64,000 nt of DNA from contig DATJNY010000029.1 in the NCBI GenBank assembly GCA_035507575.1, positions 20,067 to 84,066 of the forward strand, written 5' to 3'. The notes below the pieces were generated by a model. That model was not told the origin of the DNA. It did no database searches and saw nothing but the letters and a program-made list of their open reading frames with translations. Numbering within the stretch: the stretch's first letter is position 1; every line of letters begins with the position of its first letter. Shown here piece after piece: positions 3,221 through 39,457 of this stretch. Source of the DNA: Thermoplasmata archaeon (lineage in GTDB: Archaea > Thermoplasmatota > Thermoplasmata > Lutacidiplasmatales > UBA184). The translations under genes and the position numbers were made by a program.

Positions 3221-3250
3221 CGGTCCGGCGGCCCCCGCGTCTCGACAGGC

Positions 3251-3258
3251 TATATATA
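3251..3258 (+). promoter_or_regulatory. Strong TATA box (TATATATA)
   Basis: This is the only perfect alternating TA octamer seen in the window. It lies 104 nt upstream of the FKBP ATG and about 25 nt upstream of the 5' stem of the candidate C/D sRNA. Confidence 0.6.
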
Positions 3259-3278
3259 GGCCCCGGGCTCGGAGGCGC

Positions 3279-3340
3279 GGGGGAATGAGGAACACCTGTC
3301 TCTCCGATTCCGTGACGAGAACTGCGACGAGCTGACCCCC
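3279..3340 (+). ncRNA. Candidate C/D box sRNA (2'-O-methylation guide)
   Basis: The sequence reads GGGGG-A-[ATGAGGA]-12 nt-[CCGA]-TTCC-[GTGACGA]-13 nt-[CTGA]-CCCCC. The C, D' and C' boxes each differ by one nucleotide from consensus and the D box is perfect. There is a 5-bp terminal GC stem, canonical spacer lengths and a TATA box at the expected distance. Confidence 0.5.
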
Positions 3341-3361
3341 AACCCCGGTACACGCTGACCG

Positions 3362-4291
3362 ATGGCCGAAAGGAAACCGTCCCCGCTGCTCGCGATCGTG
3401 CTGGTCGTGATCGTCGTCGCCGCCGGGGGCGCCGGCGCCGCCTTCCTCTACCTCGAGAACCACCGCGGCCCGGGCGCGGGGCCGCTCACGGTCGCGGTCG
3501 GGGACAACGTGACGGTGAACTACATCGGCCTCTTCGCGGACGGCCCCCAGCAGGGGCGGGTCTTCGACACCTCGCTCTACTCGATCGCGTTGAACAACGT
3601 CTCCTGGCCGAAGTCGCTCCAATACGAGTCGCGCGGCGGATCGCCCTCGGATTACACGCCGCTCGGCGTCTACGTCGGGCCCAACGCTCCGTCCTCCGGC
3701 TACACGATCGGCAACCTGACGTTCGGGGGCGTCGTCACCGGGTTCTGGCAGGGTCTCGTCGGGCTTCCGGGGAACCGGACCACCTACATCTCGGTCCCGG
3801 CCCCGCTCGGCTACCCGACCGTGAACGCGTCCTGCTACGTGACGCAGCCGCTCGTCACGACCTACCCCGTCGTCGTGTCGCTCACCCCGGCGCAGTTCCG
3901 CAGCCTCTTCCCGAACGTCACGCTCGTCGCGGGGGCGGTCTACACCGACCCCGTCTACGACTGGTCGGACCAGGTGCTCAGCGTGAACGCCACGTCGGTG
4001 ACCTACGAGAACCTCCCCACCGTCGGGGCGATCTCCAACCCCTCCGGCTGGCCCGTGCTCGTGACCAACATCTCGTCGACGACGATCACGCTGACGAGCC
4101 AGTTGGGCCCGAGCCAGGCCGGCCTGGTGCTCGGCCACGCCAGCGGCTCGGGGTACTGCGGTTCGACCTCGTTCGTGATCAGCTCGGTGAATCTGGCGAA
4201 CGGGACGTACGTCGAGGACTACAATTCGCAGGTGGCGGGCCGGAACCTGATCTTCGTCGTGACCGTGCTCGACATCCTGCGGCCGACGTAG
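3362..4291 (+). CDS. Membrane-anchored FKBP-type peptidyl-prolyl cis-trans isomerase with an extra C-terminal domain
   Basis: It has an N-terminal TM helix (LLAIVLVVIVVAAGGAGAAFLYL). The FKBP-like pattern is GDNVTVNYIGLFADG...VFDTS...GFWQGLVGLPGNRTTYISVPAPLGY. Confidence 0.7.
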   Translation: MAERKPSPLLAIVLVVIVVAAGGAGAAFLYLENHRGPGAGPLTVAVGDNVTVNYIGLFADGPQQGRVFDTSLYSIALNNVSWPKSLQYESRGGSPSDYTPLGVYVGPNAPSSGYTIGNLTFGGVVTGFWQGLVGLPGNRTTYISVPAPLGYPTVNASCYVTQPLVTTYPVVVSLTPAQFRSLFPNVTLVAGAVYTDPVYDWSDQVLSVNATSVTYENLPTVGAISNPSGWPVLVTNISSTTITLTSQLGPSQAGLVLGHASGSGYCGSTSFVISSVNLANGTYVEDYNSQVAGRNLIFVVTVLDILRPT

Positions 4292-4301
4292 GGTCGCCGG
4301 C

Positions 4302-5204
4302 TCATCCGCCGAGGGTGACCTTGCCGCGCTTCATCAACTGCTGGAGCTGCTCCTCGGCCGCCTGATCGATCATCGAGGCGCCGGGTCGGCCGCGCCCGGG
4401 AGCGTACTCCCGGATCGTCCGCCGGGCCTCGTCCCGCCGGGACCGCATCTCGCCGAGCAGCCGGCGCCCTTCCCGGTCGAGGTCGGCCATCTCGCGCGAC
4501 AGCGCGTCGACTTTCGCCATCACCTCGGCCCGGGCCTTGCCCTTCGCGCGCAGCTCCGCGACGAGCCCGCCCGCGTCGACGAGCTTGGCCCGGAGCTCGG
4601 CCATCTTGCGATCGCGCTCGCCTCGGGTCGCCACGAGCTCGGCGCCCAGGCGCTCGATCTCGGCCCGCGCCGCCCCGACCCGCTCCTCCGCCGCCTTACG
4701 CTGGAGCTCGTGCTGGGCGACCACCTCGGTCTGCGCCTCCGCCGCCTTGAGGTCCTTGTGACGCTGCCGCAGATGCGCGATGAGCGCGTTCTCCTCGTCG
4801 ATCGGGAGCGCCCGCGTCTGCTGGCGGTGCTCGAGCTCGGCGATCTCGCGCCGGATCTGCTCCGGCCGAAGCCGTTCGCCCGGCGCGAAGCTGAGCTTGA
4901 GCTCCCGCAAGGCGATGATCGCGGACTCGGCCGCCCGACGGGCCGCGTCGCGCTGGTTCCGCAACGTCGTCATTCGGCGCCCGAGGAGGCCGTGCTCGTC
5001 GTAGAGCCGTTGGACCTCATCCTGAGGAGCCTGGCGTCGGTCGTAGAGCGCCTTCTGCTCGGCCGAGAGCTTGCGCATCTCCCCGATCAGCTCGTCCCGC
5101 TTCCCCTGCAGCGCTCCGAGCCGGGCATCGATCGCTCGGAGGCGGTTGCGGGTCTCCCGCTCCCGATCGAGCTCGTCGTCGGACAGGGCGGCACGCGGGG
5201 CCAC
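4302..5204 (-). CDS. Archaeal coiled-coil protein (COG1340-like)
   Basis: About 300 aa is almost entirely heptad-like E/R/K/L/A-rich sequence. The maximal ORF (to 5318) overlaps the larB 3' end, so I placed the start at the in-frame GTG at 5204. TTG 5228 or ATG 5318 are also possible. Confidence 0.6.
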   Translation of the reverse strand: MAPRAALSDDELDRERETRNRLRAIDARLGALQGKRDELIGEMRKLSAEQKALYDRRQAPQDEVQRLYDEHGLLGRRMTTLRNQRDAARRAAESAIIALRELKLSFAPGERLRPEQIRREIAELEHRQQTRALPIDEENALIAHLRQRHKDLKAAEAQTEVVAQHELQRKAAEERVGAARAEIERLGAELVATRGERDRKMAELRAKLVDAGGLVAELRAKGKARAEVMAKVDALSREMADLDREGRRLLGEMRSRRDEARRTIREYAPGRGRPGASMIDQAAEEQLQQLMKRGKVTLGG

Positions 5205-5268
5205 GTCGCGCGAAGGTCCCGTACCCAAGAAAAGCCCTTCCCCTCCGTCCCCTCGAGGGCGGAGGAGT

Positions 5269-5997
5269 CTACCGGGCAAAGCGCTGGGCCGCGAACAGGG
5301 CGGCGGGCACCGCCCCATCGATGTTCACCACGGCGATCGGCGCGCACGACTGGAGCATCGCGTTCAGCGCCGCCTCCCCACGGCCGCCGCGACCGTAGCC
5401 GACCGACGTCGGGATCCCCACCACCGGAGCGCGAACCAATCCCGCGAGGACCGTCGGCAGCGCCCCTTCGCGGCCGGCGAACGCGAGGTAGAGCTCGGGG
5501 CGCCGGCGCTCCAGCCGACGCGCCGCGGCGAGCAACCGATGCAGTCCCGCCACTCCCACATCGTAGGCGCGAACCGTCCGCACTCCGAGCCCCTCGAGCA
5601 CGGCGCGCGCCTCCTCCGCCAGGGGGACGTCACTCGTGCCCGCGGTGACGAGGGCGACCGTGCCGGGCCGATACGCTCCGCCGAGCGGGCCAAGCAGTCG
5701 GACGATCCGCCCGTGGGCCAGCGTGCGCAGCCGGCCGCGGAGCGCGGGGTCGGCGCCGAGCGCTCGCCGCTGGCCCGGGGAGGGCCGGGAGATCAGAGCG
5801 CCCGAGCCGTTGGACGCCAGGGCGCGGGCGATGCCGAGAAGGTGGTCGACGGTCTTCCCTTCCGCGAGGATCACTTCCGGTACGCCGACCCGGCGCGGCC
5901 GGTCCCGGTCGAGCCGCGCGTAGCCGCCCACGACGATCTCCCGGCGGCGACGCGGAGCCGGCACACGAGCCGCGGGCGGGGACACAACGTTCCGCAC
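5269..5997 (-). CDS. larB: LarB-like / PurE-class (NCAIR mutase-like) carboxylase-hydrolase
   Basis: Motifs: GVPEVILAEGKT...VALVTAGTSDVPLAEEA...VGVAGLHRL...AGREGALPTVLAGL...VVGIPTSVGYG. The start is uncertain: GTG 5997 lies only about 10 nt from the divergent TATA element, and GTG 5964 and 5931 are alternatives. Confidence 0.8.
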   Translation of the reverse strand: MRNVVSPPAARVPAPRRRREIVVGGYARLDRDRPRRVGVPEVILAEGKTVDHLLGIARALASNGSGALISRPSPGQRRALGADPALRGRLRTLAHGRIVRLLGPLGGAYRPGTVALVTAGTSDVPLAEEARAVLEGLGVRTVRAYDVGVAGLHRLLAAARRLERRRPELYLAFAGREGALPTVLAGLVRAPVVGIPTSVGYGRGGRGEAALNAMLQSCAPIAVVNIDGAVPAALFAAQRFAR

Positions 5998-6006
5998 CCA
6001 AGCCGT

Positions 6007-6014
6007 GATATATC
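6007..6014 (+). promoter_or_regulatory. Palindromic TATA-like element (GATATATC) in the larB/ACAD divergent region
   Basis: It is an AT-rich octamer about 35 nt upstream of the ACAD ATG at 6045. Confidence 0.45.
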
Positions 6015-6044
6015 GGGTCCCCGTGGTCCGCGCGCCGCGCTTCT

Positions 6045-7193
6045 ATGCCCGATTTCTCGCTCTCGCCCGAGCAGGAAAGCCTGCGCGATCTCGCCCGAAA
6101 GTTCGCCCGGACCGAAATGGCCCCCCACGCCGCGGAGTGCGACCGCTCGGCGCGATTCCCCGAGGAGATCTATCGCAAGGCGTACGAGCTCGGGCTGATG
6201 AATCTCAACGTTCCGACGGAGTATGGCGGCAGCGGACTCGGCGTCGTCGACCAGTGCCTCATCGTCGAGGAGCTCGCCCACGCCTGCGGCGGCATGACGA
6301 CGTCGGTGATCGCGAACTGTCTCGCGCTCGAGCCGATCCTGCTCGGCGGGACCCCGGAGCAGAAGGACCGGATCCTGAAACCGTTCTGCGCGCAGTACCA
6401 GCTCGCGTCGTTCTGCCTGACCGAGCCGTCGGGCGGGAGCGATGCGGGGGGTCTCAAGACCCGCGCCCGGAAGGAAGGGGATCACTACGTGCTCGACGGC
6501 GAGAAGTGCTTCATCACGAATGCCCCGCACGCCTCCCTCTACACGGTCTTCGCGACCGTCGACCCCTCGCTGCGGCACAAGGGGATCACCGCGTTCGTCG
6601 TGCCGCGCTCGGCGGTCGGTGTTTCCCCCGGCAAGGACGAGGAGAAGATGGGCCACCGCGCCTCGTCGACGAGCACGGTGCGCTTCGACGGCGTGAAGGT
6701 GCCGGCGGCGGACCGGCTCGGCGCGGACGGAGATGGGTTCGCGCTGGCGATGCGTACGCTCGACCAGACCCGGACCCCGATCGGGGCGCTGGCGACCGGC
6801 ATCGCCCAGGCGGCGCTCGATCACGCCGCCGCCTACGCGCTGAAGCGCCAGACGTTCGGCAAGCCGATCGCGGAGCACCAAGCGATCCAGATCAAGCTCG
6901 CGAACATGGCGCAGGCCGTCCATGCTGCGCGCCTGTTGACCTGGCACGCCGCCTGGACGATCGACCACGGCGCGAAGGGGACCCTCGAGTCGTCGATCGC
7001 GAAGTGCTTCGCGTCGGACTCCGCCCTCCACGTCGCGGACGAGGCGATCCAGACGTTCGGCGGGTACGGTTACATGAAAGAGTATCCCGTGGAGAAGCTC
7101 CTGCGGGACGCGAAGCTCACCCAGATCTACGAAGGCGCGAACGAGATCCAACGGACGGTCATCGCCCGCGAGTTGCTGCAGCAGTACGCCTGA
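6045..7193 (+). CDS. Acyl-CoA dehydrogenase (short/medium-chain type)
   Basis: Full-length ACAD pattern: ...FCLTEPSGGSDAGG..., ...YVLDGEKCFITNA..., ...QTFGGYGY...YPVEKLLRDAKLTQIYEGANEIQ. Confidence 0.9.
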   Translation: MPDFSLSPEQESLRDLARKFARTEMAPHAAECDRSARFPEEIYRKAYELGLMNLNVPTEYGGSGLGVVDQCLIVEELAHACGGMTTSVIANCLALEPILLGGTPEQKDRILKPFCAQYQLASFCLTEPSGGSDAGGLKTRARKEGDHYVLDGEKCFITNAPHASLYTVFATVDPSLRHKGITAFVVPRSAVGVSPGKDEEKMGHRASSTSTVRFDGVKVPAADRLGADGDGFALAMRTLDQTRTPIGALATGIAQAALDHAAAYALKRQTFGKPIAEHQAIQIKLANMAQAVHAARLLTWHAAWTIDHGAKGTLESSIAKCFASDSALHVADEAIQTFGGYGYMKEYPVEKLLRDAKLTQIYEGANEIQRTVIARELLQQYA

Positions 7194-7205
7194 GCCGGGG
7201 GGCCG

Positions 7206-7982
7206 ATGGAGATCGTCGTCTGTGTGAAGCCGGTCCCGGAGTCGGAGACCCGGCTGCGCCCGACGGGCGACGGCCGGTCGCTGGATCCCGAGGCGGTCAA
7301 GTTCGTCCTCGCCGGATACGATGAGTCGGCGGTGGAGCAGGCGCTGCTCCTGAAGGAAGCGATTCCCGGCTCGAAGGTGCACGCGGTGGCGTACGGGGTC
7401 GCCCCGAGAACGGAGGAGGTGCTCCGCTCGGCGATCGCCCTCGGGTGCGATGCGGCGACCTGGATCGATGCCGGGGAGGAGACGAGCGGAGACCCGATCG
7501 TGGCGGCCCGGGCGCTCGGCGGACTGATCCGTTCCGTGCCGCACGACCTCGTGCTGTGCGGCAAGCAAGCCGGCGACGACGAGAGCGGCCTCGTTGGGGC
7601 CGCGCTCGGGGAGCTGCTCGAGGTCCCCGAGTTCGGCAGTGTGGTCGACCTGCGCTGGGACGCGGCGACGGGACAGTTCCGTTTCCAGCGGTCGGTCGAG
7701 GCCGGAACGGAGAGCTGGACCGCCGCGACGCCCCTCATCGTCGGGTTGCAGCAAGCCTGGAACGATCCGCGCACGGCGAAGCTCCCCGCGATCCTCAAGT
7801 CCCGAAAGGCGACGATCGCCCGGGCGACCCCCACAGCCGCCGGCGGGGGACGGTCGTCTCCTGAACGGTTCGAGCTCCCGCCGCCCCGGACCGGTGCGAA
7901 GATGATCGAGTACCGCACTCCCGAGGAGGCGGCCCAGAAGCTCGTCCGGATCCTGCGTGAGGAAGCGAAGGTGTTTCCGTGA
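7206..7982 (+). CDS. etfB: Electron transfer flavoprotein beta subunit
   Basis: The sequence [18 protein letters not shown]...[13 protein letters not shown]...[15 protein letters not shown] is typical of EtfB/FixA. It lies directly downstream of the ACAD gene. Confidence 0.9.
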
Positions 7983-23611: not shown

Positions 23612-24430
23612 GTGGTTGAGACGGCGTCCGAGCCGATCGAGCTCCAGGTCCTCGACGAGGGCCGGGGCCCGGCGATCCTGCTGCTGCACGGGGCGGGCCT
23701 GAGCCGCTCGGTATGGAACGACGTCGTCGCGGGGCTCGCCCCCGGTTTCCGGGTCCTCGCGGTGGATCTTCGGGGTCACGGGCGGAGCTCGAACCCCCCG
23801 TCGTCCACCTTCAGCTTCCTCGAACTGGAAGGGGACCTGCTCCGTCTGCTCGACGCGAAGCAGCTCGACCGCGTGTACGTCGTCGGGCACTCGGGCGGAG
23901 CCCTCCTCGCGCTCCGCTTCACCCTCGACCATCCCGAGCGGGTCTCCGGTCTCGTCATGATCTCGGGGGCGGCGTACACCGACTCGCATACCCGTTCGAT
24001 CACGCAGCGATGGACCGACACCTACCAGCACGAGGGTCCGGACGCTTTCGGGCTTCGGCTGCTGAAGGACCTCTACTACCCGGATTGGATCGAAGCGCAC
24101 CTCGACTTCGCGGACCGGGTGCGGGCCGCGGTCCAGCGTCAAGATCTCGCCCCCGCGACCCGCTGGAGCGACGCGATGGCGAAATTCGATGAGAAGGCCC
24201 GCGTGCCCTCGATCCGGGTTCCGACCTTGATCGTCCAAGCGATGGACGACCAGGTCGTGGACGCCTCCCACGGACGGATCCTCCGACAGTCGATCCCGGG
24301 AGCGCAGATCCGGATCCTCCCCCAGACGGGCCATATGGTCCCGCTGGAGCGCCCGAAGGAGACCGTGGAAGCCATCGCTGCCTTCGTCCGCGCCGCCGAG
24401 GAGCAGCGGGGCGTCCCGCGGGCGAGCTGA
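23612..24430 (+). CDS. Alpha/beta hydrolase
   Basis: Motifs: LLLHGAGLSRSVW..., a nucleophile elbow VVGHSGGA, and a C-terminal ...GHMVPLERP. Confidence 0.8.
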   Translation: MVETASEPIELQVLDEGRGPAILLLHGAGLSRSVWNDVVAGLAPGFRVLAVDLRGHGRSSNPPSSTFSFLELEGDLLRLLDAKQLDRVYVVGHSGGALLALRFTLDHPERVSGLVMISGAAYTDSHTRSITQRWTDTYQHEGPDAFGLRLLKDLYYPDWIEAHLDFADRVRAAVQRQDLAPATRWSDAMAKFDEKARVPSIRVPTLIVQAMDDQVVDASHGRILRQSIPGAQIRILPQTGHMVPLERPKETVEAIAAFVRAAEEQRGVPRAS

Positions 24431-24474
24431 CCCCCGGGCGCGCCCTTATCAAGCTCCGGCGCGATTGCCGGCCG

Positions 24475-24648
24475 ATGGCCCCCGACGACGCCGGCGAGAT
24501 GGCCGAGAAGGTCGCTCAGCTCGAGAAGGATCTGGTCGAGCTGCGACGGCGCCTCGCTGCCCTCGAAAAGCAGCTCGACCCCCGCTCGGAGCACCCGTCC
24601 GACCGGACCGCGGTGCGCGAGAAGGTCGCGTACGACTGGCAGGCGTAG
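24475..24648 (+). CDS. Unannotated 57-aa coiled-coil peptide ORF
   Basis: ATG at 24475 to TAG at 24648: MAPDDAGEMAEKVAQLEKDLVELRRRLAALEKQLDPRSEHPSDRTAVREKVAYDWQA. GC3 is very high. It ends 3 nt before the Nudix ATG. It falls below the ORF-track length cutoff. Confidence 0.4.
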   Translation: MAPDDAGEMAEKVAQLEKDLVELRRRLAALEKQLDPRSEHPSDRTAVREKVAYDWQA

Positions 24649-24651
24649 GCG

Positions 24652-25317
24652 ATGCCGCCGGGCGCCTCGGCCGGTACGGCGCCCCGCTCGATCGACGATC
24701 TGCTCGCCCGGCACGAGGACCTCACTCCCCCGGTCGGCACCGCGGGGGCGGCGGTCACCATCCTCCTTCGCGACGGCCGATCCGACGTCGAAATTCTACT
24801 CATCGAACGGACCGAACGAGAGACCGACCCCGCGTCCGGCCAGGTCGCGTTCCCGGGCGGACGGGTCGACGACGGGGACAGTTCGATGCGCGCGACCGCA
24901 TTGCGCGAGCTCCAGGAGGAGGTCGGGCTGACCGCCGCCGACCTCGCCGGGCCCCCGCGGTACGTCACGACGGCAAACGCCGCCCGATTCCACCTGAAAG
25001 TCGCGATCTTTGTCGCCGCGCTCGGCCCGAACGGTCAGCCTCCGACCGCGCGCAGCGCGGACGAGGTGGCGCACGTGTTCTGGCTCCCCCGCTCGGCCCT
25101 CGCCAACACCGTTCGGGTGCACCGAGAGACCGGGCTCGGACTCCTCGAGGTGCCGGCGACGGTCTACGAAGGTCACGTCCTTTGGGGGTTCACGCGCCGC
25201 TGTCTCCGCGAGTTCTTCGGACTCCCTACCGAGGACGAGTGGGCCGGCCCGGCGTTCGCCGTGTCGACCCCGGAGCCGGCCGAAGAGCCCGGCGACGGCC
25301 GCCCACCATCCTCCTGA
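24652..25317 (+). CDS. Nudix hydrolase (CoA pyrophosphatase-like)
   Basis: The Nudix box GQVAFPGGRVDDGDSSMRATALRELQEEVGL is preceded by ILLIERTERE, similar to the NudL/NUDT7 signature. Confidence 0.8.
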   Translation: MPPGASAGTAPRSIDDLLARHEDLTPPVGTAGAAVTILLRDGRSDVEILLIERTERETDPASGQVAFPGGRVDDGDSSMRATALRELQEEVGLTAADLAGPPRYVTTANAARFHLKVAIFVAALGPNGQPPTARSADEVAHVFWLPRSALANTVRVHRETGLGLLEVPATVYEGHVLWGFTRRCLREFFGLPTEDEWAGPAFAVSTPEPAEEPGDGRPPSS

Positions 25318-33046: not shown

Positions 33047-33070
33047 GGGGAAAAAGGGGAAAGGAAAGGG
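33047..33070 (-). terminator. Pyrimidine/oligo-T tract downstream of the surface-protein gene (CCCTTTCCTTTCCCCTTTTTCCCC on the minus strand)
   Basis: It is the only T5 run in this GC-rich convergent gap, about 30 nt after the TAA stop, next to a 5-bp GC hairpin. Archaeal terminators are typically oligo-T. Confidence 0.35.
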
Positions 33071-33082
33071 TTCGGCGGCGCG

Positions 33083-36000
33083 TTACGGCGCGGGCGGCGG
33101 GGACGCGGTACTTTCCGACTGCTCGTCCCACTGCGCGGGGGCGCTGCTGTGCCCTTCCGGGGCGCCTCCCTCGGTCGTCGGGGTAGGACCGGTCCACGGG
33201 GCGGCAGGGGGCGGGGACTCGCCCCGACGGCGCGTCAGCACCGCGAGGAGCGCCAGCACGAGGGCGATCACCGCGATCACCAGCGCGACGATGAGCCAGG
33301 TGTTGAACGTCGACGACGTCACGAACGAGGTCGTCGAGCTCGACGCGAACGCGGCACCGAGGTTCCCCGGCGCACCGTTCACCACCACGTTCCCGGTCCC
33401 GCCGGACACCGTGTAGCCCGAGGGAGCGCTCACCGAGTACGCGTAGGTCCCGTTGGGGACGTACCAGGTCAACGACGCACCCGAGGTCGACTGCGTGACC
33501 CCGTTGACCGTCGCGGACCACGTGACCCCGGGGGCGAGACCGCTCGCCGAGATCGTCACCGCATAGGTGACCTGCGTGAACGCGATGAGGATCGCGTACC
33601 CGCTCGCCGTCACCGTGACCGTGCCGCTGGACGGCGACGCCGTGTAGCCCGCGACGGCCCCGACCTGGTAGCTGAACGTACCGACCCCCGAGGCGAACTG
33701 GATCGTCGAGCCCGTCGAGTTGCCCGCGATCCCGCCGAAGACGGCGTTCCACGCCGTGCCCGCGGGCAGTCCGGTCTCCGTCAGGGTGACGGTCGTCGCC
33801 GGGCTGAACGCCAGCTCGACCGCGACGTCGCCCGTTGTCCCCGTGGCGACCGAGCCGGACGACGGGGACGCCGTGAATCCGGGAACGGCGCCCACGGTGT
33901 AGGCATATGTCCCGGACGTCGCCGCGAACACCATCCACGCGTTGGCGCTCGACTGGGTCGCCCCGTCGAAGGTCACCGACCAGGTCGTGCCCGCGGTGAG
34001 CCCGTCCTCGTAGAACCAGACCGCCGTCTCGTTCGCCGGCGCGTAGAGCGGGTAGTAGTCCCAGTTCTGGTCGCCGACGTAGTACGGGTTCAGCGTCCCC
34101 TCGGTGTTCCAGGAGTGCCAGTCGGCCCAGTAGTTCCCCGTGTACGGCTCGACGGGGCTGTTGAACGAATTGTAGCAGTCCCCACAGCCGTAGCCGCTGT
34201 AGGCCTGGATGTGCGCCGCGCTGTACGTGTCGGTCGCGCCGTTGTCCCCGATGAACGTCGAGCCCCAGACGTAGTTGTACTCCGAATCCCACAACGAGAC
34301 CCCGTAGCTGGTGTCATCGATGAAGCTCGAGCCGAGGAGGTCGTTCTCGTAGGTGTCGACCTCCCACACGCCGAGCCAATCGTGCGAGGAGCTCACGCCG
34401 TTGAGGTACGCGTACTCGGTGAAGTTCAGGACGACCCCGTAGAAGTCGGCGGTCGACGTCAGCCCCTGCAGGTAGATGCTTCCCGGGTAGTAGCCGTCGC
34501 CGGAACCCGCGTCGTAGAGACCGATCGGATAGTTCGACACCGCGACGTTCGAGATCTGCAGCTGATACGTCTCCTCGGTGTAGACCGCGGCGATCGGCGG
34601 CGTCCCTCCCCACGCGTCGGAGTAGAAGCCCCACGGCATGGAGGTCGTCGCGTTCGTGGCCGTGACCCCGGTGATGTCGATCTCCCCGGATTCGTAGACC
34701 CAGACCCCGATCGAGAGATCGGAGACCGTGACCCCGGAGATCTGCAGGTGGGTGGACGGCCAGTAATACTCGTCGTCCAGCGGGAGGATCTCGACGCCCA
34801 CGGACAGACCCGTCGCGGAAACGTCCGAGACGTTGTCCCACGAGGAGCCGTCGATCTCGACGCCGATGGCCTGGTCGCTGGCGCTGACCCCGGAGATCGT
34901 CACACCGATCGAAGGGTCGATCACGAGTCCGATCGCCCCGTCGGCGGCCGAGACCCCGGAGACCGTCGTATGGGGAGAGTCGGTCAAGTATACCCCGTAC
35001 GCATAGTCGCCCGCGGCCACCGTAGCGATCGAGCCGCCGGGCGAGTCCACGAACTCGACGCCGTAGGTGCCCGAATTGTCGGCGGAGACGTCCGCGACCG
35101 AGGTGCCCGGGGTATCGGTCGCTTCGACGCCCGTCGAGTCGAGCTCCGCGGTAACCGTGGAGACCGAGACGCCGGTCGAGTCGCTCGCGAAGACGCCGTG
35201 AGCGTCTCCGTCCGCGAGCACGTCCGTCACCGACACCGTCGCCGAGTCCTCGACGACGAGCCCGGCCGCGCCCTCGAGCGCGACGAGTCCGTCGATGGTC
35301 AGTCCGACCGAGCCCTCGTCCATCTCAACCCCGAGCGAGTCGTCCCCGCTCGCGTTGACGTCCGTGATGCGCGTGTGGTTCGACGCGTCGATCTCGACGC
35401 CCAACGACGCCTCCGTGACGTTGACGGTGGTGAACGTGCTCGACGACGTCCCGTAGTCGAGGCGCACGCCGAGCGACTCGTCCGTCGAGGTGATCCACGA
35501 GAACGAGTTACCGGTCGTGTCGTACGAGGCGATTCCCCCGCAGTAGAGATCGTTGTAGCACTCGTCCTGCGAGTCGCTGACCACGACATCCGTCACGGTC
35601 GCTCCCGAGGTGTAGTAGAGATTGATCCCGATGTAGTCGTCGATGACCGCGGCGTCCGAGAACGAAATCGCGCCGGTCTCGTAATCCAGCTCGAAGCCAA
35701 ACTCGTTCCCGCCGTCGTAGAGGTCCGTCGCCGAGAAGCCGCTCCCGCCGCCGAAGACCACGCCTCCGTAGGCGTCCTCGATGTCGGCGTCGCTCACGAC
35801 CACGTTGTTGACGTCGTCGCCGAGAACTCCGAAATCCCAGGGGTAGAGGATCGTGATGTCCGTGAGCGTCAGCCCCGTCGAATCAAGGACGTAAACCTCC
35901 GCGGCACCATCCTCGTACCAGCCCGTCGACGTGAGTCCAGTGACGGTCGTGTCGGTGGCGTTCCACGCCGAGATCGCCCCAGCATCGTAGACCCACGTGT

Positions 36001-38539
36001 CAGAGATGGTGGTGCCGAGCGTGGCGTCGAGCTCGATCGCGAGCGCCGAGTTGTCGTCGGGGTCGTACGCCCCCACGTCGTTGAAGGTGGTGTCCTTCGA
36101 GAGCGTAATGTTCGCTCCCAACGAGTCCTCCGTGACGTTGAGCTCGTTGATGGTCATCCCGGTGGTCCCTGGGATGCTGTAGTAGGCGAGACTCGAGCTT
36201 CCGATGTAGCCGGCGTCATAGCCGACCTCGAAGCCCGCGCCGTAGTCCGTAACGTTGACCCAACTGTACGTGCTGTCAACCGAAGTCGCGGACTCAACGC
36301 CCAGCGAGTCGTCCACGGAGAGGGTCCACACCGTGGTGTGCGACGAACCGAGGTCGGTCACGCCGGTAGATTCCTCGCCCGCGATGACGTACGAGAGGGT
36401 CGTGCCCGTGGAGTCGCCGACCCATATGCCCTGAGAGAAATCGAGCGCGAGCGCGTAGTAGACGACCGCGTTCGTCTCCTGCCAGAATTCGATGGAGCCG
36501 CCGGCGGGAGCATACTCGCCGTGGAAACCGGAACCGATCAGGACCTGGTAGCTGACATTGTCCACTCCCTGGTCGTCGAGGAACGCGATCTGGGAGGAGA
36601 ATTGCTCGAACTCGGGGTCAGCGAGGAGCTCGCCCGCGGGGGTGAGCAACCCGGTCGCGGGGGGGTAGGGCTCCGGATACCAGTAGAGCCAGCCGTACTC
36701 CTCGGAAGACGGCCCCTGTGAGATTCCCGAGACGTTGATCGCGCCCGTCACTCCGATCGCCTGGAACAGGGCGAACGTCGGGTACGTGTAGTCGTTCACG
36801 CGGTCGAAGGTGACGTTGACGAAGGGCTCGAGCCCGTAGAAGTCGTACGGGGGAGTCGCCGGGGAACCGACCGCCGCGGCGAGTGCGCTCGCCTGCGCAT
36901 CTCCGTACATGTACAGCGGAGCCTGGTCGTTATCGATGTTCGCCACGAGCGCGAGGGAGTAGCCGGTGACGCTGCCGGTCACCGGGGTCCCGTTCAGCTC
37001 GTCGTACCCGTCGGCCCACGCTTGAACATAGTACGCCGAGGTCCAGGGCGCCCCGAGGGGCGGGAGATAGGTGTTGAAATCGCCAGAGTTGTCGGTCGGC
37101 ACCCAGCTCAGGTTCTGGCCGTAGCCGCCCGGGGCCTGGTTTCCGACGAAGACGAAGCCGAACGACGGGTCGATCGACCCCGAGAGGTGAATATCGCCGG
37201 AGGGCACGGCGACCTGCGGTTCGGCCCCCCAGAGTCCGTAGAGCATCGCCGGTCCCTGGTTCATGACCAGCGCGTGGCTCGGGGTCCAGTAGTCCGCGAT
37301 CCCGATCGAGGACTCGCCGGTGTCGTCGCCCCAGTTGTATCCGGAGGGCACGTTTTGGAATCCGCCCGCCGTCAGGTTCGAGTATTCGAGGTTGATCGTA
37401 CCGTTCACGGACCGGAAGTCGGCGTTGTCCCCGCCGATGCCGCCGACGAGCACGATCTCGGCGTCCCGGTAGAATCCGCCGGGCGTCGTGTCGAACCCGT
37501 CGATCGTGAAGCCCGGGGTGGTGGGGGGCGTGCCGCCCGCCGTGTTGTTGAACACGACGGAGTCACTGATCCCGGTCTGGCGGAGGTGAGTGCCCGCCTC
37601 GATGATGTTGTAGCCGTAGGAGACGACGGACTGACCCTCCGAATTCGTCGTCGCGTTGTTGTAAAGTTGCAGCGTGATGGGGTACGAGGCCGCCGAGATT
37701 GGGATGGTCTTCCCGACGCACTGGAAGACCCCGCCGTACTCCGCGAGGATGAGGTCAACACCGGCGGAGTTGTTGTTGCACGCCGAGACGATGACCCCGG
37801 AGCCGATGTATCCACCGCTCGCGTTGAACGTGTCGTCGACGAAATGGATGCCCGTGTCGTTCCAGTTCACGACGTTCTGGGTCCAGAAGAACCCGGAATT
37901 GCTACCGGGGACGGTGATGTTGGTCGCGATGGTGTTCAGCTGGATGCCGAACGTGTACGGGCTTCCGATGTAGCCCTGGTGCTGACCGGGATTGTTCGGC
38001 ATGATGAGGTCCGTGGCGCCGGGGTTCGTGGCATTCGGGGGCGTGTTGAACACCACCTGCCCGAGAATGTGCGACGTGTTGTAGGAGTACGTCTGGGCAC
38101 CGAGCCCATAGTCGGCGATCCCGAGGGGCGCGGGAGGATTCGTAAATGCGGGAATGATGGTCGAGACGGAGGTCTCGCCTTTGAGAATCGCGAGATTCGG
38201 CAGAGAGGTCAGGGGATGGGTCATCGTGCCCGCCTGAAGCATCTGGACCCAGGGGGCCGTCGCATAGGTCGGGGAAAGGCCGGTGAGGGCGGCCGCCGCG
38301 CCCGCGGAGGTTCCGCTCCCTTCGAGCTCGGCCGGATTCGGGATCTCGGCATTCGTGGGCGCGGCGCTGGGCACCGGCGCGACGGTACTCGGGTTGACCC
38401 CAACCGCCGCGGCCAGCGGATTCCCCGGCGATGCCGCCGCCGAAAGGGCGGCGCCACCCGGCAAGACCATCACGGCGCAGATCGCGAGCACAATCGGCAG
38501 CAGCCAGACAGGTCGGAGGTGGGACCCCGAGGTCGTCAT
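33083..38539 (-). CDS. Giant membrane-anchored surface protein: signal peptide, thermopsin-like (peptidase A5) domain, long parallel beta-helix region, three Ig-like repeats, C-terminal TM anchor
   Basis: The signal-like N-terminus is RPVWLLPIVLAICAVMVLPGGAALSA. PPAPLGIADYGLG, FGIQLNTIA, FWTQNVVNW, HFVDDTFN and YRDAEIVLVGGIGGDNADF parallel the remembered Sulfolobus thermopsin motifs (PPAPAGIASFGL, LQFNIVL, YWLQDVGQF, TFIDNVWN, YYDAELVWGGGGNG). There are tens of roughly 22-aa V.V.D/G... beta-helix-like repeats. The C-terminal segment is WLIVALVIAVIALVLALLAVL followed by RRRG. I placed the start at ATG 38539. Confidence 0.85.
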   Translation of the reverse strand: MTTSGSHLRPVWLLPIVLAICAVMVLPGGAALSAAASPGNPLAAAVGVNPSTVAPVPSAAPTNAEIPNPAELEGSGTSAGAAAALTGLSPTYATAPWVQMLQAGTMTHPLTSLPNLAILKGETSVSTIIPAFTNPPAPLGIADYGLGAQTYSYNTSHILGQVVFNTPPNATNPGATDLIMPNNPGQHQGYIGSPYTFGIQLNTIATNITVPGSNSGFFWTQNVVNWNDTGIHFVDDTFNASGGYIGSGVIVSACNNNSAGVDLILAEYGGVFQCVGKTIPISAASYPITLQLYNNATTNSEGQSVVSYGYNIIEAGTHLRQTGISDSVVFNNTAGGTPPTTPGFTIDGFDTTPGGFYRDAEIVLVGGIGGDNADFRSVNGTINLEYSNLTAGGFQNVPSGYNWGDDTGESSIGIADYWTPSHALVMNQGPAMLYGLWGAEPQVAVPSGDIHLSGSIDPSFGFVFVGNQAPGGYGQNLSWVPTDNSGDFNTYLPPLGAPWTSAYYVQAWADGYDELNGTPVTGSVTGYSLALVANIDNDQAPLYMYGDAQASALAAAVGSPATPPYDFYGLEPFVNVTFDRVNDYTYPTFALFQAIGVTGAINVSGISQGPSSEEYGWLYWYPEPYPPATGLLTPAGELLADPEFEQFSSQIAFLDDQGVDNVSYQVLIGSGFHGEYAPAGGSIEFWQETNAVVYYALALDFSQGIWVGDSTGTTLSYVIAGEESTGVTDLGSSHTTVWTLSVDDSLGVESATSVDSTYSWVNVTDYGAGFEVGYDAGYIGSSSLAYYSIPGTTGMTINELNVTEDSLGANITLSKDTTFNDVGAYDPDDNSALAIELDATLGTTISDTWVYDAGAISAWNATDTTVTGLTSTGWYEDGAAEVYVLDSTGLTLTDITILYPWDFGVLGDDVNNVVVSDADIEDAYGGVVFGGGSGFSATDLYDGGNEFGFELDYETGAISFSDAAVIDDYIGINLYYTSGATVTDVVVSDSQDECYNDLYCGGIASYDTTGNSFSWITSTDESLGVRLDYGTSSSTFTTVNVTEASLGVEIDASNHTRITDVNASGDDSLGVEMDEGSVGLTIDGLVALEGAAGLVVEDSATVSVTDVLADGDAHGVFASDSTGVSVSTVTAELDSTGVEATDTPGTSVADVSADNSGTYGVEFVDSPGGSIATVAAGDYAYGVYLTDSPHTTVSGVSAADGAIGLVIDPSIGVTISGVSASDQAIGVEIDGSSWDNVSDVSATGLSVGVEILPLDDEYYWPSTHLQISGVTVSDLSIGVWVYESGEIDITGVTATNATTSMPWGFYSDAWGGTPPIAAVYTEETYQLQISNVAVSNYPIGLYDAGSGDGYYPGSIYLQGLTSTADFYGVVLNFTEYAYLNGVSSSHDWLGVWEVDTYENDLLGSSFIDDTSYGVSLWDSEYNYVWGSTFIGDNGATDTYSAAHIQAYSGYGCGDCYNSFNSPVEPYTGNYWADWHSWNTEGTLNPYYVGDQNWDYYPLYAPANETAVWFYEDGLTAGTTWSVTFDGATQSSANAWMVFAATSGTYAYTVGAVPGFTASPSSGSVATGTTGDVAVELAFSPATTVTLTETGLPAGTAWNAVFGGIAGNSTGSTIQFASGVGTFSYQVGAVAGYTASPSSGTVTVTASGYAILIAFTQVTYAVTISASGLAPGVTWSATVNGVTQSTSGASLTWYVPNGTYAYSVSAPSGYTVSGGTGNVVVNGAPGNLGAAFASSSTTSFVTSSTFNTWLIVALVIAVIALVLALLAVLTRRRGESPPPAAPWTGPTPTTEGGAPEGHSSAPAQWDEQSESTASPPPAP
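33341..34024 (-). repeat. Three tandem 76-aa (228-nt) domain repeats inside the surface-protein gene
   Basis: R1 is AVWFYEDGLTAGTTWSVTFDG...GTYAYTVGAVPGFTASPSSGSV. R2 is TTVTLTETGLPAGTAWNAVFGG...GTFSYQVGAVAGYTASPSSGTV. R3 is TYAVTISASGLAPGVTWSATVNG...GTYAYSVSAPSGYTVSGGTGNV. Confidence 0.75.
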
Positions 38540-38561: not shown

Positions 38562-38569
38562 TCTAAAGA
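38562..38569 (-). promoter_or_regulatory. TATA-like element (TCTTTAGA on the minus strand) upstream of the surface-protein gene
   Basis: It lies about 25-30 nt upstream of the ATG at 38539. Confidence 0.4.
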
Positions 38570-38802
38570 CGTTGCGAAAACGACCGTTCTGCCGGCCCGG
38601 CGCGCCAACCGCACGGGGCCCAACCGCGGAACGGGTCTCGCCACCCCGGCACCGGGAAGGCGGTTAGGACCCGTGGGGAATCGAGCTAGAGAACCCGCTC
38701 GACCTGATCCCCCCAGAGAGCACCACGAAGGTCCTGTGAGAGGGATTTCCCCCGCTCCGGACTCGGGGATCGGGCGACCCCGTCGAGCTTAGGTGGAGGA
38801 GC

Positions 38803-38836: not shown

Positions 38837-39457
38837 ATGGTCGGAGATCCTGACCCGCCTACCGGCCCGAAGGAGGTAGCGTTCTCCTGCCCTCGCTGCG
38901 GTGCGCCCCTGCCAGTTCCCGCGGAGGATGGGTTCGTCACCTGTGAATACTGCGGTGTTCGAACACAAGTCTCGAGCTTAGCCCCGCCCCCACGCCGGTC
39001 CACCCCCTCTGAGGAGTCTTCCCCGGAACTCGAGCCGTCCCTCCAATCGATCGGCGACGAACCCGGGCCCGGAGGGATGTCTTTCGTTGCTCGAATTGTG
39101 ATTGTGATCGTAGTGATTGCAATAGCCATTGCACTCGTTGCCGCCACGCAGCCTCCCGCGAATCCGGGCGGCCCTTCCGTCGCAGCGTGTTCGGTCGCCA
39201 TCAACGCGTCCGCCACTTCGGGGCCCGCTCCGTTTACCGCGACGTTCACGGCCGAAATTACTACACCACCGGGAGATTCTGCCAGCGAACCGATGTGGCA
39301 GTTTGGCCCGTTCCCCCCGGGCTTGGATCTCAACTACACGGATGGGACGACCGTCACCCATACGTGGGACGCTAGTGGTTCCTTCGGAGTCCACGTGACA
39401 GTACCCGATACGAGCCTGCAGGGGTGCTGGGCCGCCATGAACGTCAACGTGACCTGA
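38837..39457 (+). CDS. Zinc-ribbon / single-TM / PKD-domain protein
   Basis: The N-terminal ribbon is CPRCG...CEYCG, the TM helix is FVARIVIVIVVIAIAIALVAA, and the C-terminal region is PKD-like (GPAPFTATFTAE...HTWDASGSFGVHVTV). Confidence 0.7.
   Translation: MVGDPDPPTGPKEVAFSCPRCGAPLPVPAEDGFVTCEYCGVRTQVSSLAPPPRRSTPSEESSPELEPSLQSIGDEPGPGGMSFVARIVIVIVVIAIAIALVAATQPPANPGGPSVAACSVAINASATSGPAPFTATFTAEITTPPGDSASEPMWQFGPFPPGLDLNYTDGTTVTHTWDASGSFGVHVTVPDTSLQGCWAAMNVNVT

What the first reader, a model, noticed from the sequence alone, without database searches (positions are those of the whole stretch)
33083..38539. 1818-aa surface-anchored protein fusing a thermopsin-like protease domain to a very long parallel beta-helix
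This single gene takes up 8.5 percent of the window. After a signal-like N-terminus, residues from about 125 to 400 carry motifs that parallel Sulfolobus thermopsin as I remember it (PPAPLGIADYGLG, FGIQLNTIA, FWTQNVVNW, HFVDDTFN, YRDAEIVLVGGIGGDNADF). About 700 residues of 20-25-aa beta-helix-type repeats follow (e.g. VSVTDVLADGDAHGVFASDSTGVSVSTVTAELDSTGVEATDTPGTSVADVSADNSGTYGVEF...). Then come three Ig-like repeats and a C-terminal TM helix with a short cytoplasmic tail. The protein is dense in N-x-S/T sequons, with dozens visible, which implies heavy N-glycosylation. A tethered thermopsin on a rigid stalk could be either a cell-surface protease or a protease-derived S-layer or adhesin component. 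I cannot tell from sequence whether catalytic residues are retained.
Basis: partly seen in the sequence, partly recalled or inferred. Interest (0 to 1): 0.6.

Follow-up and report, generated by a model that had tools for sequence, protein, structure and literature searches.

The report
Membrane-anchored thermopsin protease on beta-helix stalk
This gene really does encode a very large, sugar-coated acid protease held on a rigid stalk at the surface of an acid-soil archaeon, but the design is common in that lineage and similar anchored thermopsins are already characterised, so it is a well-described ordinary case.

Summary
Window 33083-38539 (minus strand) is one uninterrupted 1818-aa gene.

- **Protease head.** Residues 128-411 match Pfam Thermopsin (MEROPS A5) at E 2e-35, about 100 bits above the cut-off. 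The published candidate active-site motifs are present and invariant or nearly invariant in 82 homologues.
- **Shaft and anchor.** About 780 residues of right-handed parallel beta-helix follow, supported by Pfam NosD/Beta_helix hits, a confident AlphaFold model and a 22-residue period. Then come three 77-aa CnaB-like stalk domains, one transmembrane helix and a 48-aa proline-rich cytoplasmic tail.
- **Composition.** The ectodomain has 0.53 % Lys+Arg, against about 11 % in neighbouring proteins. Of its 28 sequons, 16 are positionally conserved.
- **Family.** The host is a 70 % GC soil Thermoplasmata genome, apparently Lutacidiplasmatales-like. Public records already label such proteins "thermopsin family protease". 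The head has 359 cluster representatives in 1.84 billion.

The best reading is a tethered, N-glycosylated acid endopeptidase that scavenges peptides. A structural coat or stalk role is a live rival and may coexist, as with Sulfolobus SSO1175/M164_1049/Saci1846. No link to glutamic (G1) peptidases was detectable. I file it as a new member of a known kind, of modest interest.

The parts
38562..38569 (-). TATA-like box (TCTTTAGA) about 26 nt upstream of the ATG. It implies a leaderless or near-leaderless transcript and favours the ATG at 38539 over the GTG at 38644.
   Evidence: Read directly from the sequence. Homologues also start at the equivalent Met. Promoter function is inferred.
38429..38539 (-). 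Residues 1-37: Sec-type signal peptide, with n-region Arg9, a hydrophobic core at 11-32 and an Ala-rich c-region ALSAAAS.
   Evidence: Kyte-Doolittle peak of 2.34 at residues 14-32. SignalP was not available.
38255..38428 (-). Residues 38-95: poorly conserved Ala/Pro/Ser-rich linker, possibly a propeptide.
   Evidence: Identity to 29 homologues is 18-29 % here, against 45-65 % in the head.
36620..38254 (-). Residues 96-640: conserved protease head. It comprises the Pfam Thermopsin domain (128-411; window 37307-38158) plus a conserved extension of about 230 aa that packs with it as one rigid unit.
   Evidence: Pfam E 2e-35 and 4.7e-37 on the domain alone. The AlphaFold model of residues 90-700 has mean pLDDT 92.9 and pTM 0.93. 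Invariant or near-invariant residues are D143, Q200, N202, Q221, D236, N239, D359, E361, D406, T407 and E409. The head has 359 representative clusters, nearly all matching over about 500 residues at the N-terminus of 1000-2500-aa proteins.
34250..36592 (-). Residues 650-1430: right-handed parallel beta-helix shaft, about 35 rungs of 22 residues. The central part (about 1030-1175) is a lineage-specific, hypervariable insertion.
   Evidence: Pfam NosD at 5.1e-14 and Beta_helix at 1e-9. AlphaFold rungs. Foldseek matches to AlgE6, AlgE4 and phage tailspikes at E 3e-4 to 1.5e-3. A 22-aa period. Alignment occupancy is only 0.33-0.45 at residues 1001-1200.
34028..34249 (-). Residues 1431-1504: conserved C-terminal cap of the helix, carrying the GNYWADWH motif.
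   Evidence: Near-invariant G1468, N1469, W1471, D1473 and W1474. The same motif type (GGGNYWSNH) occurs in the headless paralogue on contig C23.
33341..34027 (-). Residues 1505-1733: three tandem 77-aa beta-sandwich stalk repeats (GL..G..W ... GTY.Y). No Pfam model covers them.
   Evidence: Autocorrelation peak at lag 77 and anchors at 1513, 1590 and 1667. AlphaFold pLDDT is 85-95. Foldseek matches CnaB/pilin-type tandem domains: 6fwv at 2.5e-9, 7vcr at 7.9e-8, 1d2p at 1.7e-6. There is no Pfam hit. The module occurs on many different proteins per genome in the genus.
33230..33304 (-). Residues 1746-1770: single C-terminal transmembrane anchor.
   Evidence: Kyte-Doolittle peak of 3.49. AlphaFold helix at 1748-1768. 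63 of 82 homologues have such a helix.
33086..33229 (-). Residues 1771-1818: cytoplasmic tail with an RRR stop-transfer, then Pro-rich sequence with two Trp motifs (PWTGP, QWDE).
   Evidence: In the 63 anchored homologues, W-x(1-3)-P occurs in 49, W-x-[E/D/Q] in 52 and a basic pair after the TM helix in 62. The tail is disordered in the model.
33051..33070 (-). Pyrimidine-rich stretch ending in T5, just after the TAA stop. It resembles an archaeal terminator.
   Evidence: Read from the sequence. Function is inferred.

Best explanation
The gene encodes a type-I membrane-anchored, N-glycosylated cell-surface acid endopeptidase of the thermopsin family (MEROPS A5). The host is an acid-soil Thermoplasmata archaeon that looks Lutacidiplasmatales/TMEG-like.

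**Proposed mechanism**
- The Sec signal peptide is removed after export.
- The protease head of about 545 residues is a thermopsin domain plus a conserved extension that packs rigidly with it.
- The head sits at the far end of a beta-helix shaft of about 35 rungs, roughly 17 nm long.
- Three CnaB-like 77-aa stalk domains connect the shaft to a single C-terminal TM helix.
- A short conserved Pro/Trp-rich tail lies in the cytoplasm.
- The head would therefore stand some 25-30 nm from the membrane. There it would cleave environmental proteins at low pH, so the peptides are released next to the cell's own peptide uptake system.

**Adaptations.** The near absence of Lys and Arg, together with conserved N-glycans, makes the ectodomain acid-stable and resistant to proteolysis.

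**Shown versus inferred.** Shown here are the gene, the domain order, family membership, retention of the family's conserved residues, and the composition. Proteolytic activity, nutritional role, glycosylation, dimensions and pH optimum are inferred.
For: - **Family match.** Thermopsin scores 123 bits over 5-253 of 256 model positions.
- **Conserved residues.** The motifs Rawlings (PMC3842238) lists as candidate active-site positions are all present. QLN corresponds to Q200/N202, Q[D/N]V to Q221/N222, D.E to D359/E361, and DTGE to D406-E409. They are invariant or at least 90 % conserved in 30 and 82 homologues. Q, Q, D.E and TxE are also kept in the two other thermopsin paralogues of the same genome.
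- **Selection.** The head is the most conserved part of the protein, at 45-65 % identity against 8-25 % in the mid-helix. It recurs as an N-terminal unit of about 500 aa in 359 representative clusters.
- **Architecture.** Confident models cover the head, helix, stalk and TM helix.
- **Composition.** The ectodomain has 0.53 % K+R, against a median of 11.25 % for 30 neighbouring proteins.
- **Glycosylation.** 16 of 28 sequons are positionally conserved, and an STT3/AglB homologue is present.
- **Uptake.** The genome has an Opp/Dpp-type peptide-binding protein.
- **Lineage context.** Literature on this lineage reports extracellular thermopsin, S53 and A4 peptidases plus peptide transport as prevalent (PMC9287336).
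- **Characterised analogues.** SsMTP and SsMTP-1 (SSO1175) are cell-bound, multi-domain thermopsin-like proteases active at pH 2 and induced on peptides (PMC3958906).
Against: - No activity, expression or proteomic data exist for this protein.
- The catalytic residues of family A5 have never been determined, so 'retained' means only that the family-wide conserved positions are retained.
- The equivalents of thermopsin Asp144 (D235) and Asp302 (D406) vary. D235 is not conserved in the 82 homologues. Asp302 is Glu in both paralogues.
- A membrane-anchored thermopsin-family protein in Sulfolobus has a proven structural role.
- The same helix-stalk-anchor cassette exists without any protease head in this genome. 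The shaft is therefore not merely a holder for the protease.
Confidence: 0.65

Rival explanations
1. The protein is primarily structural. It would be one of the anchored glycoprotein building blocks of the cell coat, or a stalk holding another surface layer. The thermopsin-like head would serve as a binding or spacing module, either inactive or with only incidental activity. This would resemble M164_1049/Saci1846 in Sulfolobales.
For: - Saci1846 and M164_1049 are thermopsin-family proteins with a signal peptide, three Ig-like domains and a C-terminal TM helix. They anchor SlaA alongside SlaB (PMC12207459; PMC6712394).
- A headless beta-helix + three repeats + TM + W-motif tail protein exists in the same genome.
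- The stalk-anchor module is shared by many surface proteins per genome.
- The cytoplasmic tail motifs are conserved, suggesting an intracellular partner.
- The estimated length of 25-30 nm is in the range of archaeal envelope spacings (inference).
Against: - The strongest purifying selection falls on the polar residues of the thermopsin head.
- The family is multi-copy and not syntenic. None of 82 related loci shares the neighbours.
- 19 of 82 homologues lack a strong C-terminal hydrophobic helix, so they lack the anchor or are truncated.
- No lattice-forming partner was identified.
- The Sulfolobus orthologue SSO1175 is itself an active protease, so a structural role would not exclude catalysis.
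Confidence: 0.22
2. The beta-helix is itself the working part. It would be a glycan-binding or glycan-cleaving module (lyase, epimerase or depolymerase-like). The protein would then be an adhesin, or a bifunctional enzyme that degrades glycoproteins or polysaccharides.
For: - Foldseek matches mannuronan C5-epimerases AlgE6/AlgE4, a PL6 alginate lyase, and phage tailspike and capsule depolymerases at E 3e-4 to 1.5e-3.
- A PDB profile search hits NosD and AlgG-type epimerases weakly.
Against: - These matches reflect the generic fold, with low TM-scores.
- The central helix is the least conserved and most indel-rich part.
- No conserved catalytic motif was seen there.
- No carbohydrate-active family was hit in Pfam or NCBIfam.
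Confidence: 0.1
3. The ORF is an assembly or frameshift artefact that joins separate genes, or it is a spurious long frame in GC-rich DNA.
For: High-GC DNA produces many long spurious frames. For example, a 1886-aa frame lies on the opposite strand.
Against: - GC3 is 0.90 with GC2 at 0.52, as in real genes.
- Identical 1818-aa products come from five separate records.
- More than 60 homologues have the same domain order.
- Every segment gives a confident fold.
Confidence: 0.01

Closest known systems
SsMTP-1 (SSO1175) and SsMTP of Saccharolobus solfataricus, with the orthologues M164_1049 (S. islandicus) and Saci1846 (S. acidocaldarius)
   Same: Both have a signal peptide, an N-terminal thermopsin-family domain, tandem Ig-like repeats and a C-terminal membrane anchor. 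Both are N-glycosylated and cell-bound. SSO1175 has proven acid protease activity, and its orthologues have a proven secondary S-layer stalk role (PMC3958906, PMC6712394, PMC12207459).
   Different: The Sulfolobales proteins are about 600-1300 aa and, in the descriptions read here, have no beta-helix. Here a NosD-type beta-helix of about 780 aa and a conserved head extension of about 230 aa are inserted. The host is a mesophilic soil Thermoplasmata, not a thermoacidophilic crenarchaeon. Direct sequence comparison with those proteins was not done here.
Thermopsin of Sulfolobus acidocaldarius (MEROPS A5 type enzyme; Pfam PF05317)
   Same: The catalytic-domain family is the same (E 2e-35), and so are the conserved motifs QLN, Q[D/N]V, D-x-E and DTGE. 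Both are secreted, heavily N-glycosylated and low in basic residues.
   Different: Thermopsin is a free protein with a mature form of about 300 aa. This one is 1818 aa and membrane-tethered. The equivalent of Asp129 is Asn here, as in 43 of the 75 homologues in Rawlings 2013.
'Thermopsin family protease' proteins of uncultured soil and peat Thermoplasmata (automatic NCBI/JGI annotation; Pfam architecture Thermopsin + NosD/Beta_helix)
   Same: They have the same full architecture at 30-55 % identity. There are 82 word-indexed homologues and 76 loci in GTDB species genomes, including UBA184 and AcS1-45 of the Lutacidiplasmatales study.
   Different: This copy is longer than the median (1818 against 1523 aa), because of extra rungs at about 1030-1175. 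It is not syntenic with any of the others.
CnaB-type / pilin-like tandem stalk domains of Gram-positive surface proteins (Cna B repeats 1D2P, PitA 7VCR, TIE 6FWV)
   Same: The three 77-aa repeats share their fold and their tandem arrangement next to the anchor.
   Different: There is no detectable sequence relationship and no Pfam model. Isopeptide bonds were not examined. Anchoring is by a TM helix, not by sortase.

Membership tests
MEROPS A5 / Pfam PF05317 thermopsin family | Significant, near full-length match to the family profile above the curated threshold | tested here: met
   123 bits against a 25-bit cut-off, E 2e-35, model positions 5-253 of 256. The domain alone scores 128 bits.
MEROPS A5 / Pfam PF05317 thermopsin family | Retention of the family-wide conserved polar residues proposed as active-site candidates (Gln109, Asn111, Gln128, Asp/Asn129, Asn148, Asp257, Asp302, Glu305; Rawlings 2013) | tested here: met
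   Motif-level mapping gives Q200, N202, Q221, N222, N239, D359, D406 and E409. These are invariant or at least 90 % conserved in the homologues. The canonical motifs QDV and DNVWN in paralogue C48 fix the register. The equivalent of Asp144 (D235) is variable. No residue-level alignment to the type enzyme was made.
MEROPS A5 / Pfam PF05317 thermopsin family | Secreted or extracellular location with a cleavable signal | tested here: met
   An N-terminal hydrophobic segment at 6-37 follows Arg9, and the only other TM helix is at the C-terminus. No dedicated signal-peptide predictor was available.
MEROPS A5 / Pfam PF05317 thermopsin family | Endopeptidase activity at acid pH | not testable with these tools
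   This needs expression and an assay.
Right-handed parallel beta-helix (pectin-lyase-like / NosD-type) | Profile matches, a repeating rung of about 22 residues, and a predicted three-sheet helix resembling solved beta-helices | tested here: met
   NosD at 5.1e-14 and Beta_helix at 1.1e-9 and 2.1e-7. Period 22. AlphaFold rungs with pLDDT above 90. Foldseek matches to AlgE6, AlgE4 and tailspikes. Residues 1032-1174 are modelled with low confidence but have the strongest 22-aa period.
Sulfolobales S-layer stalk proteins (SlaB / M164_1049 type) | Signal peptide, Ig-like domains and a C-terminal TM anchor | tested here: met
   This is a resemblance in architecture only.
Sulfolobales S-layer stalk proteins (SlaB / M164_1049 type) | A partner lattice protein (SlaA-like) held by the stalk | not tested
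   No S-layer lattice candidate was searched for in this incomplete genome (84 % complete).
Glutamic peptidases G1 (eqolisins; Pfam Peptidase_A4 PF01828) | Detectable sequence or profile relationship, or a structural match to solved G1 enzymes | tested here: not met
   hhalign of the thermopsin-domain profile (74 sequences) against a profile of 10 G1 peptidases from the same genus gave probability 0.5 %. No Pfam hit appeared even at E 10. No G1 structure is among the top 50 Foldseek matches; the best are jelly-roll lyases at E 1e-3. Both profiles have low diversity (Neff about 3) and the query model was multi-domain, so a distant fold relationship is not excluded.
PGF-CTERM / archaeosortase-processed surface proteins | A PGF motif, a TM helix and a very short basic tail at the extreme C-terminus | tested here: not met
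   There is no PGF motif, and 48 residues follow the TM helix. No NCBIfam hit.

The most novel reading that the evidence does not exclude
The helix-stalk-anchor cassette, with or without an enzyme head, may be the standard building block of a non-crystalline glycoprotein coat about 25-30 nm thick. That coat would replace an S-layer in wall-less soil Thermoplasmata.

- The conserved cytoplasmic W-x-P-P ... W-S-E tail motifs would tie these proteins to an unknown intracellular partner for sorting, cytoskeletal attachment or signalling.
- The thermopsin head would be an active carboxyl peptidase with a jelly-roll-type fold. Its catalytic residues would lie among Q200, Q221, D359, E361 and E409, not in a pepsin-like Asp pair.
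- The 'conserved Asn148/Thr150' of the literature would be a glycosylation sequon.
Probability: 0.15. Interest if true: 0.6.

Novelty: new member of a known kind. Interest (0 to 1): 0.3.

Why it matters
It adds a cleanly dissected example of how acid-soil Thermoplasmata display acid proteases. These are abundant, uncultured organotrophs.

- The example shows a conserved head of about 545 aa, a variable beta-helix shaft, an unnamed 77-aa stalk repeat, and a TM anchor with a conserved cytoplasmic tail.
- Family A5 still has no solved structure and no known catalytic residues. The confident model and the short list of invariant residues (D143, Q200, Q221, D359, E361, E409) give concrete mutagenesis targets.
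- N239-x-S241 appears to be a conserved sequon rather than a catalytic pair.

Beyond that, the protein is typical of its lineage and already carries a correct automatic annotation.

Tried and rejected
1. **Link to glutamic (G1) peptidases**, a lead from an earlier scan note. I collected 10 Peptidase_A4 proteins from genomes of the same genus. I then built profiles and ran hhalign in global and local modes. The probability was at most 0.5 %. Pfam at E 10 gave nothing, and no G1 chain was in the Foldseek top 50. The link is not supported here.
2. **Solved relatives of the head.** phmmer and a profile search of the PDB found none. The only hits were NosD and AlgG-type matches to the helix.
3. **Conserved gene neighbourhood.** None of 82 related loci carries cca, the radical-SAM gene, the PKD protein or rpr2 next to the homologue. 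The flanking genes are unrelated housekeeping genes.
4. **DNA-level tandem repeats in the gene.** None were found, so the repeats are old.
5. **The longer GTG start at 38644.** I rejected it because the TATA-like box lies inside the extension and homologues start at the ATG-equivalent Met.
6. **PGF-CTERM or lipobox anchoring.** The motifs are absent.
8. **Spatial clustering of conserved residues.** Model coordinates are not exposed to the Python box, so this could not be measured.
Full report
**1. The observation**

Window 33083-38539 on the minus strand is one open frame of 1818 codons, running from an ATG to a TAA stop. The stop-to-stop frame could start 35 codons earlier at a GTG (38644). 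Two things argue against that. A TATA-like TCTTTAGA box lies at 38562-38569, about 26 nt before the ATG and inside that extension. Homologues also begin at the equivalent Met.

Third-position GC is 0.90 and second-position GC is 0.52, the same pattern as the real genes around it. The window as a whole is about 70 % GC. A pyrimidine-rich stretch ending in T5 follows the stop.

**2. Domain anatomy**

- **Thermopsin domain.** Pfam Thermopsin (PF05317) matches residues 128-411 over model positions 5-253 of 256. The score is E 2e-35 and 123 bits against a cut-off of 25. The domain alone gives E 4.7e-37.
- **Beta-helix.** NosD and Beta_helix models hit between about 855 and 1434.
- **Regions without a family.** No Pfam or NCBIfam model covers residues 412-700 or the C-terminal 350 residues.
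- **Head model.** AlphaFold2 with 82 homologues modelled residues 90-700 at mean pLDDT 92.9 and pTM 0.93. The thermopsin domain and the next 230 or so residues therefore form one rigid, almost all-beta unit.
- **Shaft and anchor model.** Residues 640-1818 were modelled at mean pLDDT 81.9.
  - Beta-helix rungs lie at 650-1028 and 1181-1430.
  - Confidence is low at 1032-1118 and 1139-1174.
  - Three beta-sandwich domains lie at 1505-1733.
  - A TM helix lies at 1748-1768, followed by a disordered tail.
- **The low-confidence stretch.** This is where most homologues have gaps, with alignment occupancy of 0.33-0.45. It nevertheless shows the strongest 22-residue periodicity of the whole shaft. 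It is best read as extra rungs specific to this copy.
- **Fold matches.** Foldseek against the PDB matched the three repeats to CnaB/pilin-type tandem domains: 6fwv at 2.5e-9, 7vcr at 7.9e-8 and 1d2p at 1.7e-6. It matched the shaft to AlgE epimerases and phage tailspikes at 3e-4 to 1.5e-3.
- **Repeats and hydrophobic segments.** The repeats have an exact 77-residue period. Hydropathy shows only two strongly hydrophobic segments, the N-terminal signal (6-37) and the C-terminal anchor (about 1746-1770).

**3. Composition**

The ectodomain (residues 38-1745) has 9 Lys+Arg in 1708 residues, which is 0.53 %. The median for 30 other proteins of the window is 11.25 %. Asp+Glu is ordinary at 10.6 %. 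This 20-fold depletion of basic residues holds across the family, with a median of 7 Lys and 11.5 Arg in about 1500 aa. From general knowledge, this is the signature of acid-stable secreted proteins such as pepsin and thermopsin.

There are 28 N-x-S/T sequons, against 17.6 +/- 3.7 expected. Sixteen of them are at positions conserved in at least 20 of 29 homologues, and nearly all of those lie in the head. The genome encodes an STT3/AglB homologue.

**4. Organism and relatives**

The window lies in a 1.4-Mb, 84 %-complete assembly. Its neighbours are archaeal housekeeping genes: orc1/cdc6, lipA, the CCA-adding enzyme, rpr2 and gluRS.

Homologues come from 'Thermoplasmata archaeon' assemblies of soils and peat, including UBA184 and AcS1-45. 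Those two belong to the Lutacidiplasmatales/TMEG set described by Sheridan et al. That study reports 65-71 % GC, genomes of about 2 Mb, acidic soils, and extracellular thermopsin, S53 and A4 peptidases as the prevalent peptidases (PMC9287336).

- The word-indexed search found 82 homologues. Most have Thermopsin plus NosD/Beta_helix, and several are already named 'thermopsin family protease' or 'Thermopsin/Periplasmic copper-binding protein (NosD)'.
- An exhaustive phmmer search with the 545-aa head found 359 representative clusters at E <= 1e-3, and 139 at <= 1e-30. Almost all match over about 500 residues at the N-terminus of 1000-2500-aa proteins.
- 31 of 41 related genomes have a match.
- There is no conserved synteny.
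- The genome has two further thermopsin-domain genes, both membrane-anchored. It also has a headless protein with beta-helix, three repeats, a TM helix and a W-motif tail on contig C23. A Kelch-type protein on contig C8 carries the same repeat.

The C-terminal module is therefore a shared anchor cassette, and this gene is a protease head fused to it.

**5. Are catalytic residues retained?**

Family A5 has no solved structure. I found none by sequence or by profile. Its catalytic residues are unknown (PMC3842238). Rawlings lists the conserved candidates as Gln109, Asn111, Gln128, Asp129 (Asn in 43 of 75), Asp144, Asn148, Thr150, Asp228, Asp257, Asp302 and Glu305.

I mapped these by motif. Paralogue C48 carries the canonical QDV and DNVWN motifs, and I used it to fix the register. 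The target then has:

| Thermopsin position | Target residue |
|---|---|
| Gln109 / Asn111 | Q200 / N202 |
| Gln128 / Asp129 | Q221 / N222 |
| Asp144 | D235 (with D236 adjacent) |
| Asn148 / Thr150 | N239 / S241 |
| Asp257 (+2) | D359 (with E361) |
| Asp302 / Glu305 | D406 / E409 |

- Across 82 homologues, Q200, N202, Q221, N239, T407, E409 and D143 are invariant. D236, D359, E361 and D406 are at least 90 % conserved.
- Across the three paralogues of this genome, the Asp144 equivalent is D, S or D, and the Asp302 equivalent is D, E or E. Q, Q, D-x-E and T-x-E never change.
- N239-A-S241 is a sequon conserved in 29 of 29 homologues. The literature's 'Asn148/Thr(Ser)150' is therefore more simply explained as a glycosylation site. 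This is my inference.

Everything the family conserves is retained, which argues for an active enzyme. The data do not settle the catalytic type.

An earlier scan note suggested a glutamic-peptidase relationship, and I tested it. Profile-profile comparison with G1 peptidases from the same genus gave probability of at most 0.5 %. The best Foldseek matches for the head were jelly-roll polysaccharide lyases at only E 1e-3, with no G1 chain in the top 50. The relationship is not supported here, but a distant fold relationship is not excluded.

**6. Mechanism and rivals**

The best-supported reading is a tethered acid endopeptidase that feeds a peptide-scavenging organotroph. The genome has an Opp/Dpp-type binding protein, and the lineage is reported to carry peptide transport and amino-acid catabolism. 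The closest characterised proteins are the cell-bound multi-domain thermopsin-like proteases SsMTP and SsMTP-1 (SSO1175) (PMC3958906).

The main rival is a structural role. The SSO1175 orthologues M164_1049 and Saci1846 act as secondary stalks anchoring the SlaA lattice (PMC6712394; PMC12207459). The existence of the headless cassette points the same way.

The two roles are not exclusive. I give about 0.65 to 'active surface protease' as the primary function, about 0.22 to 'primarily structural', and about 0.1 to a glycan-directed role for the helix. Artefact is excluded.

The dimensions are estimates from standard geometry, not measurements: about 35 rungs at 4.8 A gives roughly 17 nm, and three stalk domains add about 10 nm.

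**7. Novelty**

The gene is correctly recognisable by routine annotation. It belongs to a family with hundreds of members, and it has characterised analogues. The new points are descriptive:

- the conserved head extension of about 230 aa;
- the hypervariable mid-shaft;
- the uncurated 77-aa stalk repeat, which earlier notes of this scan also found;
- the conserved cytoplasmic Trp motifs;
- the sequon reinterpretation.

I file it as a new member of a known kind, with an interest score of about 0.3.

Noticed in passing
window 33086-33229 (-), and the tails of 63 homologues: The cytoplasmic tails after the TM anchor are not random. 62 of 63 have a basic pair just after the helix, 49 of 63 have a W-x(1-3)-P motif (typically AW[TS]PP), and 52 of 63 have a later W-[S/N/D]-E motif, often ending in PPS. 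The target has PWTGP and QWDE. The same tail type sits on an unrelated headless beta-helix protein in the genome (AWSPPAG...DWKET). This suggests an unknown intracellular partner or sorting signal.
   Followed up: partly
own genome contig C23, about 4164-7247 (+): A protein of about 1020 aa with a signal peptide, a NosD/Beta_helix shaft (Pfam 3.4e-18), a GGGNYWSNH cap, three 77-aa repeats, a TM helix and a W-motif tail, but no thermopsin head. This is the anchor cassette on its own.
   Followed up: partly
own genome contig C48 (thermopsin match at 24029-24829, minus strand; locus L001): This paralogue has the most canonical thermopsin domain (206 bits; motifs QDV, DNVWN). It is followed directly by a TM helix and a Pro-rich cytoplasmic tail with two CxxC...CxxC zinc-ribbon-like motifs (CPRCG...CPRCG and CPNCG...CHKCG).
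   Followed up: no
window 37817-37825 (-), residues N239-A-S241: The 'conserved Asn148 and Thr/Ser150' listed as possible active-site residues of thermopsin (PMC3842238) correspond to an N-x-S/T sequon conserved in 29 of 29 homologues. They are probably a conserved N-glycosylation site rather than catalytic residues.
   Followed up: partly
window 38837-39457 (+): A divergently transcribed small ORF (206 aa) with a PKD domain (Pfam 2.8e-6) lies 297 nt upstream of the target. It is not found next to homologues elsewhere.
   Followed up: partly
own genome contig C6:36206-37432 (-): The STT3/AglB oligosaccharyltransferase match lies in an unusually long open frame of 2224 aa.
   Followed up: no
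own genome contig C8, about 1742-3553 (+): A protein of about 600 aa with Kelch-like repeats, one 77-aa GLPxxTxW stalk repeat, a PKD-like segment and a TM anchor. It is another head on the same stalk system.
   Followed up: no
genomes of the same genus (loci L086-L092, L100-L103): Secreted G1 (Peptidase_A4) glutamic peptidases with the WVGIDG...VEQTG and SAEWI motifs occur in 14 of 41 related genomes. The window's own genome has only a weak match at 26.6 bits.
   Followed up: partly
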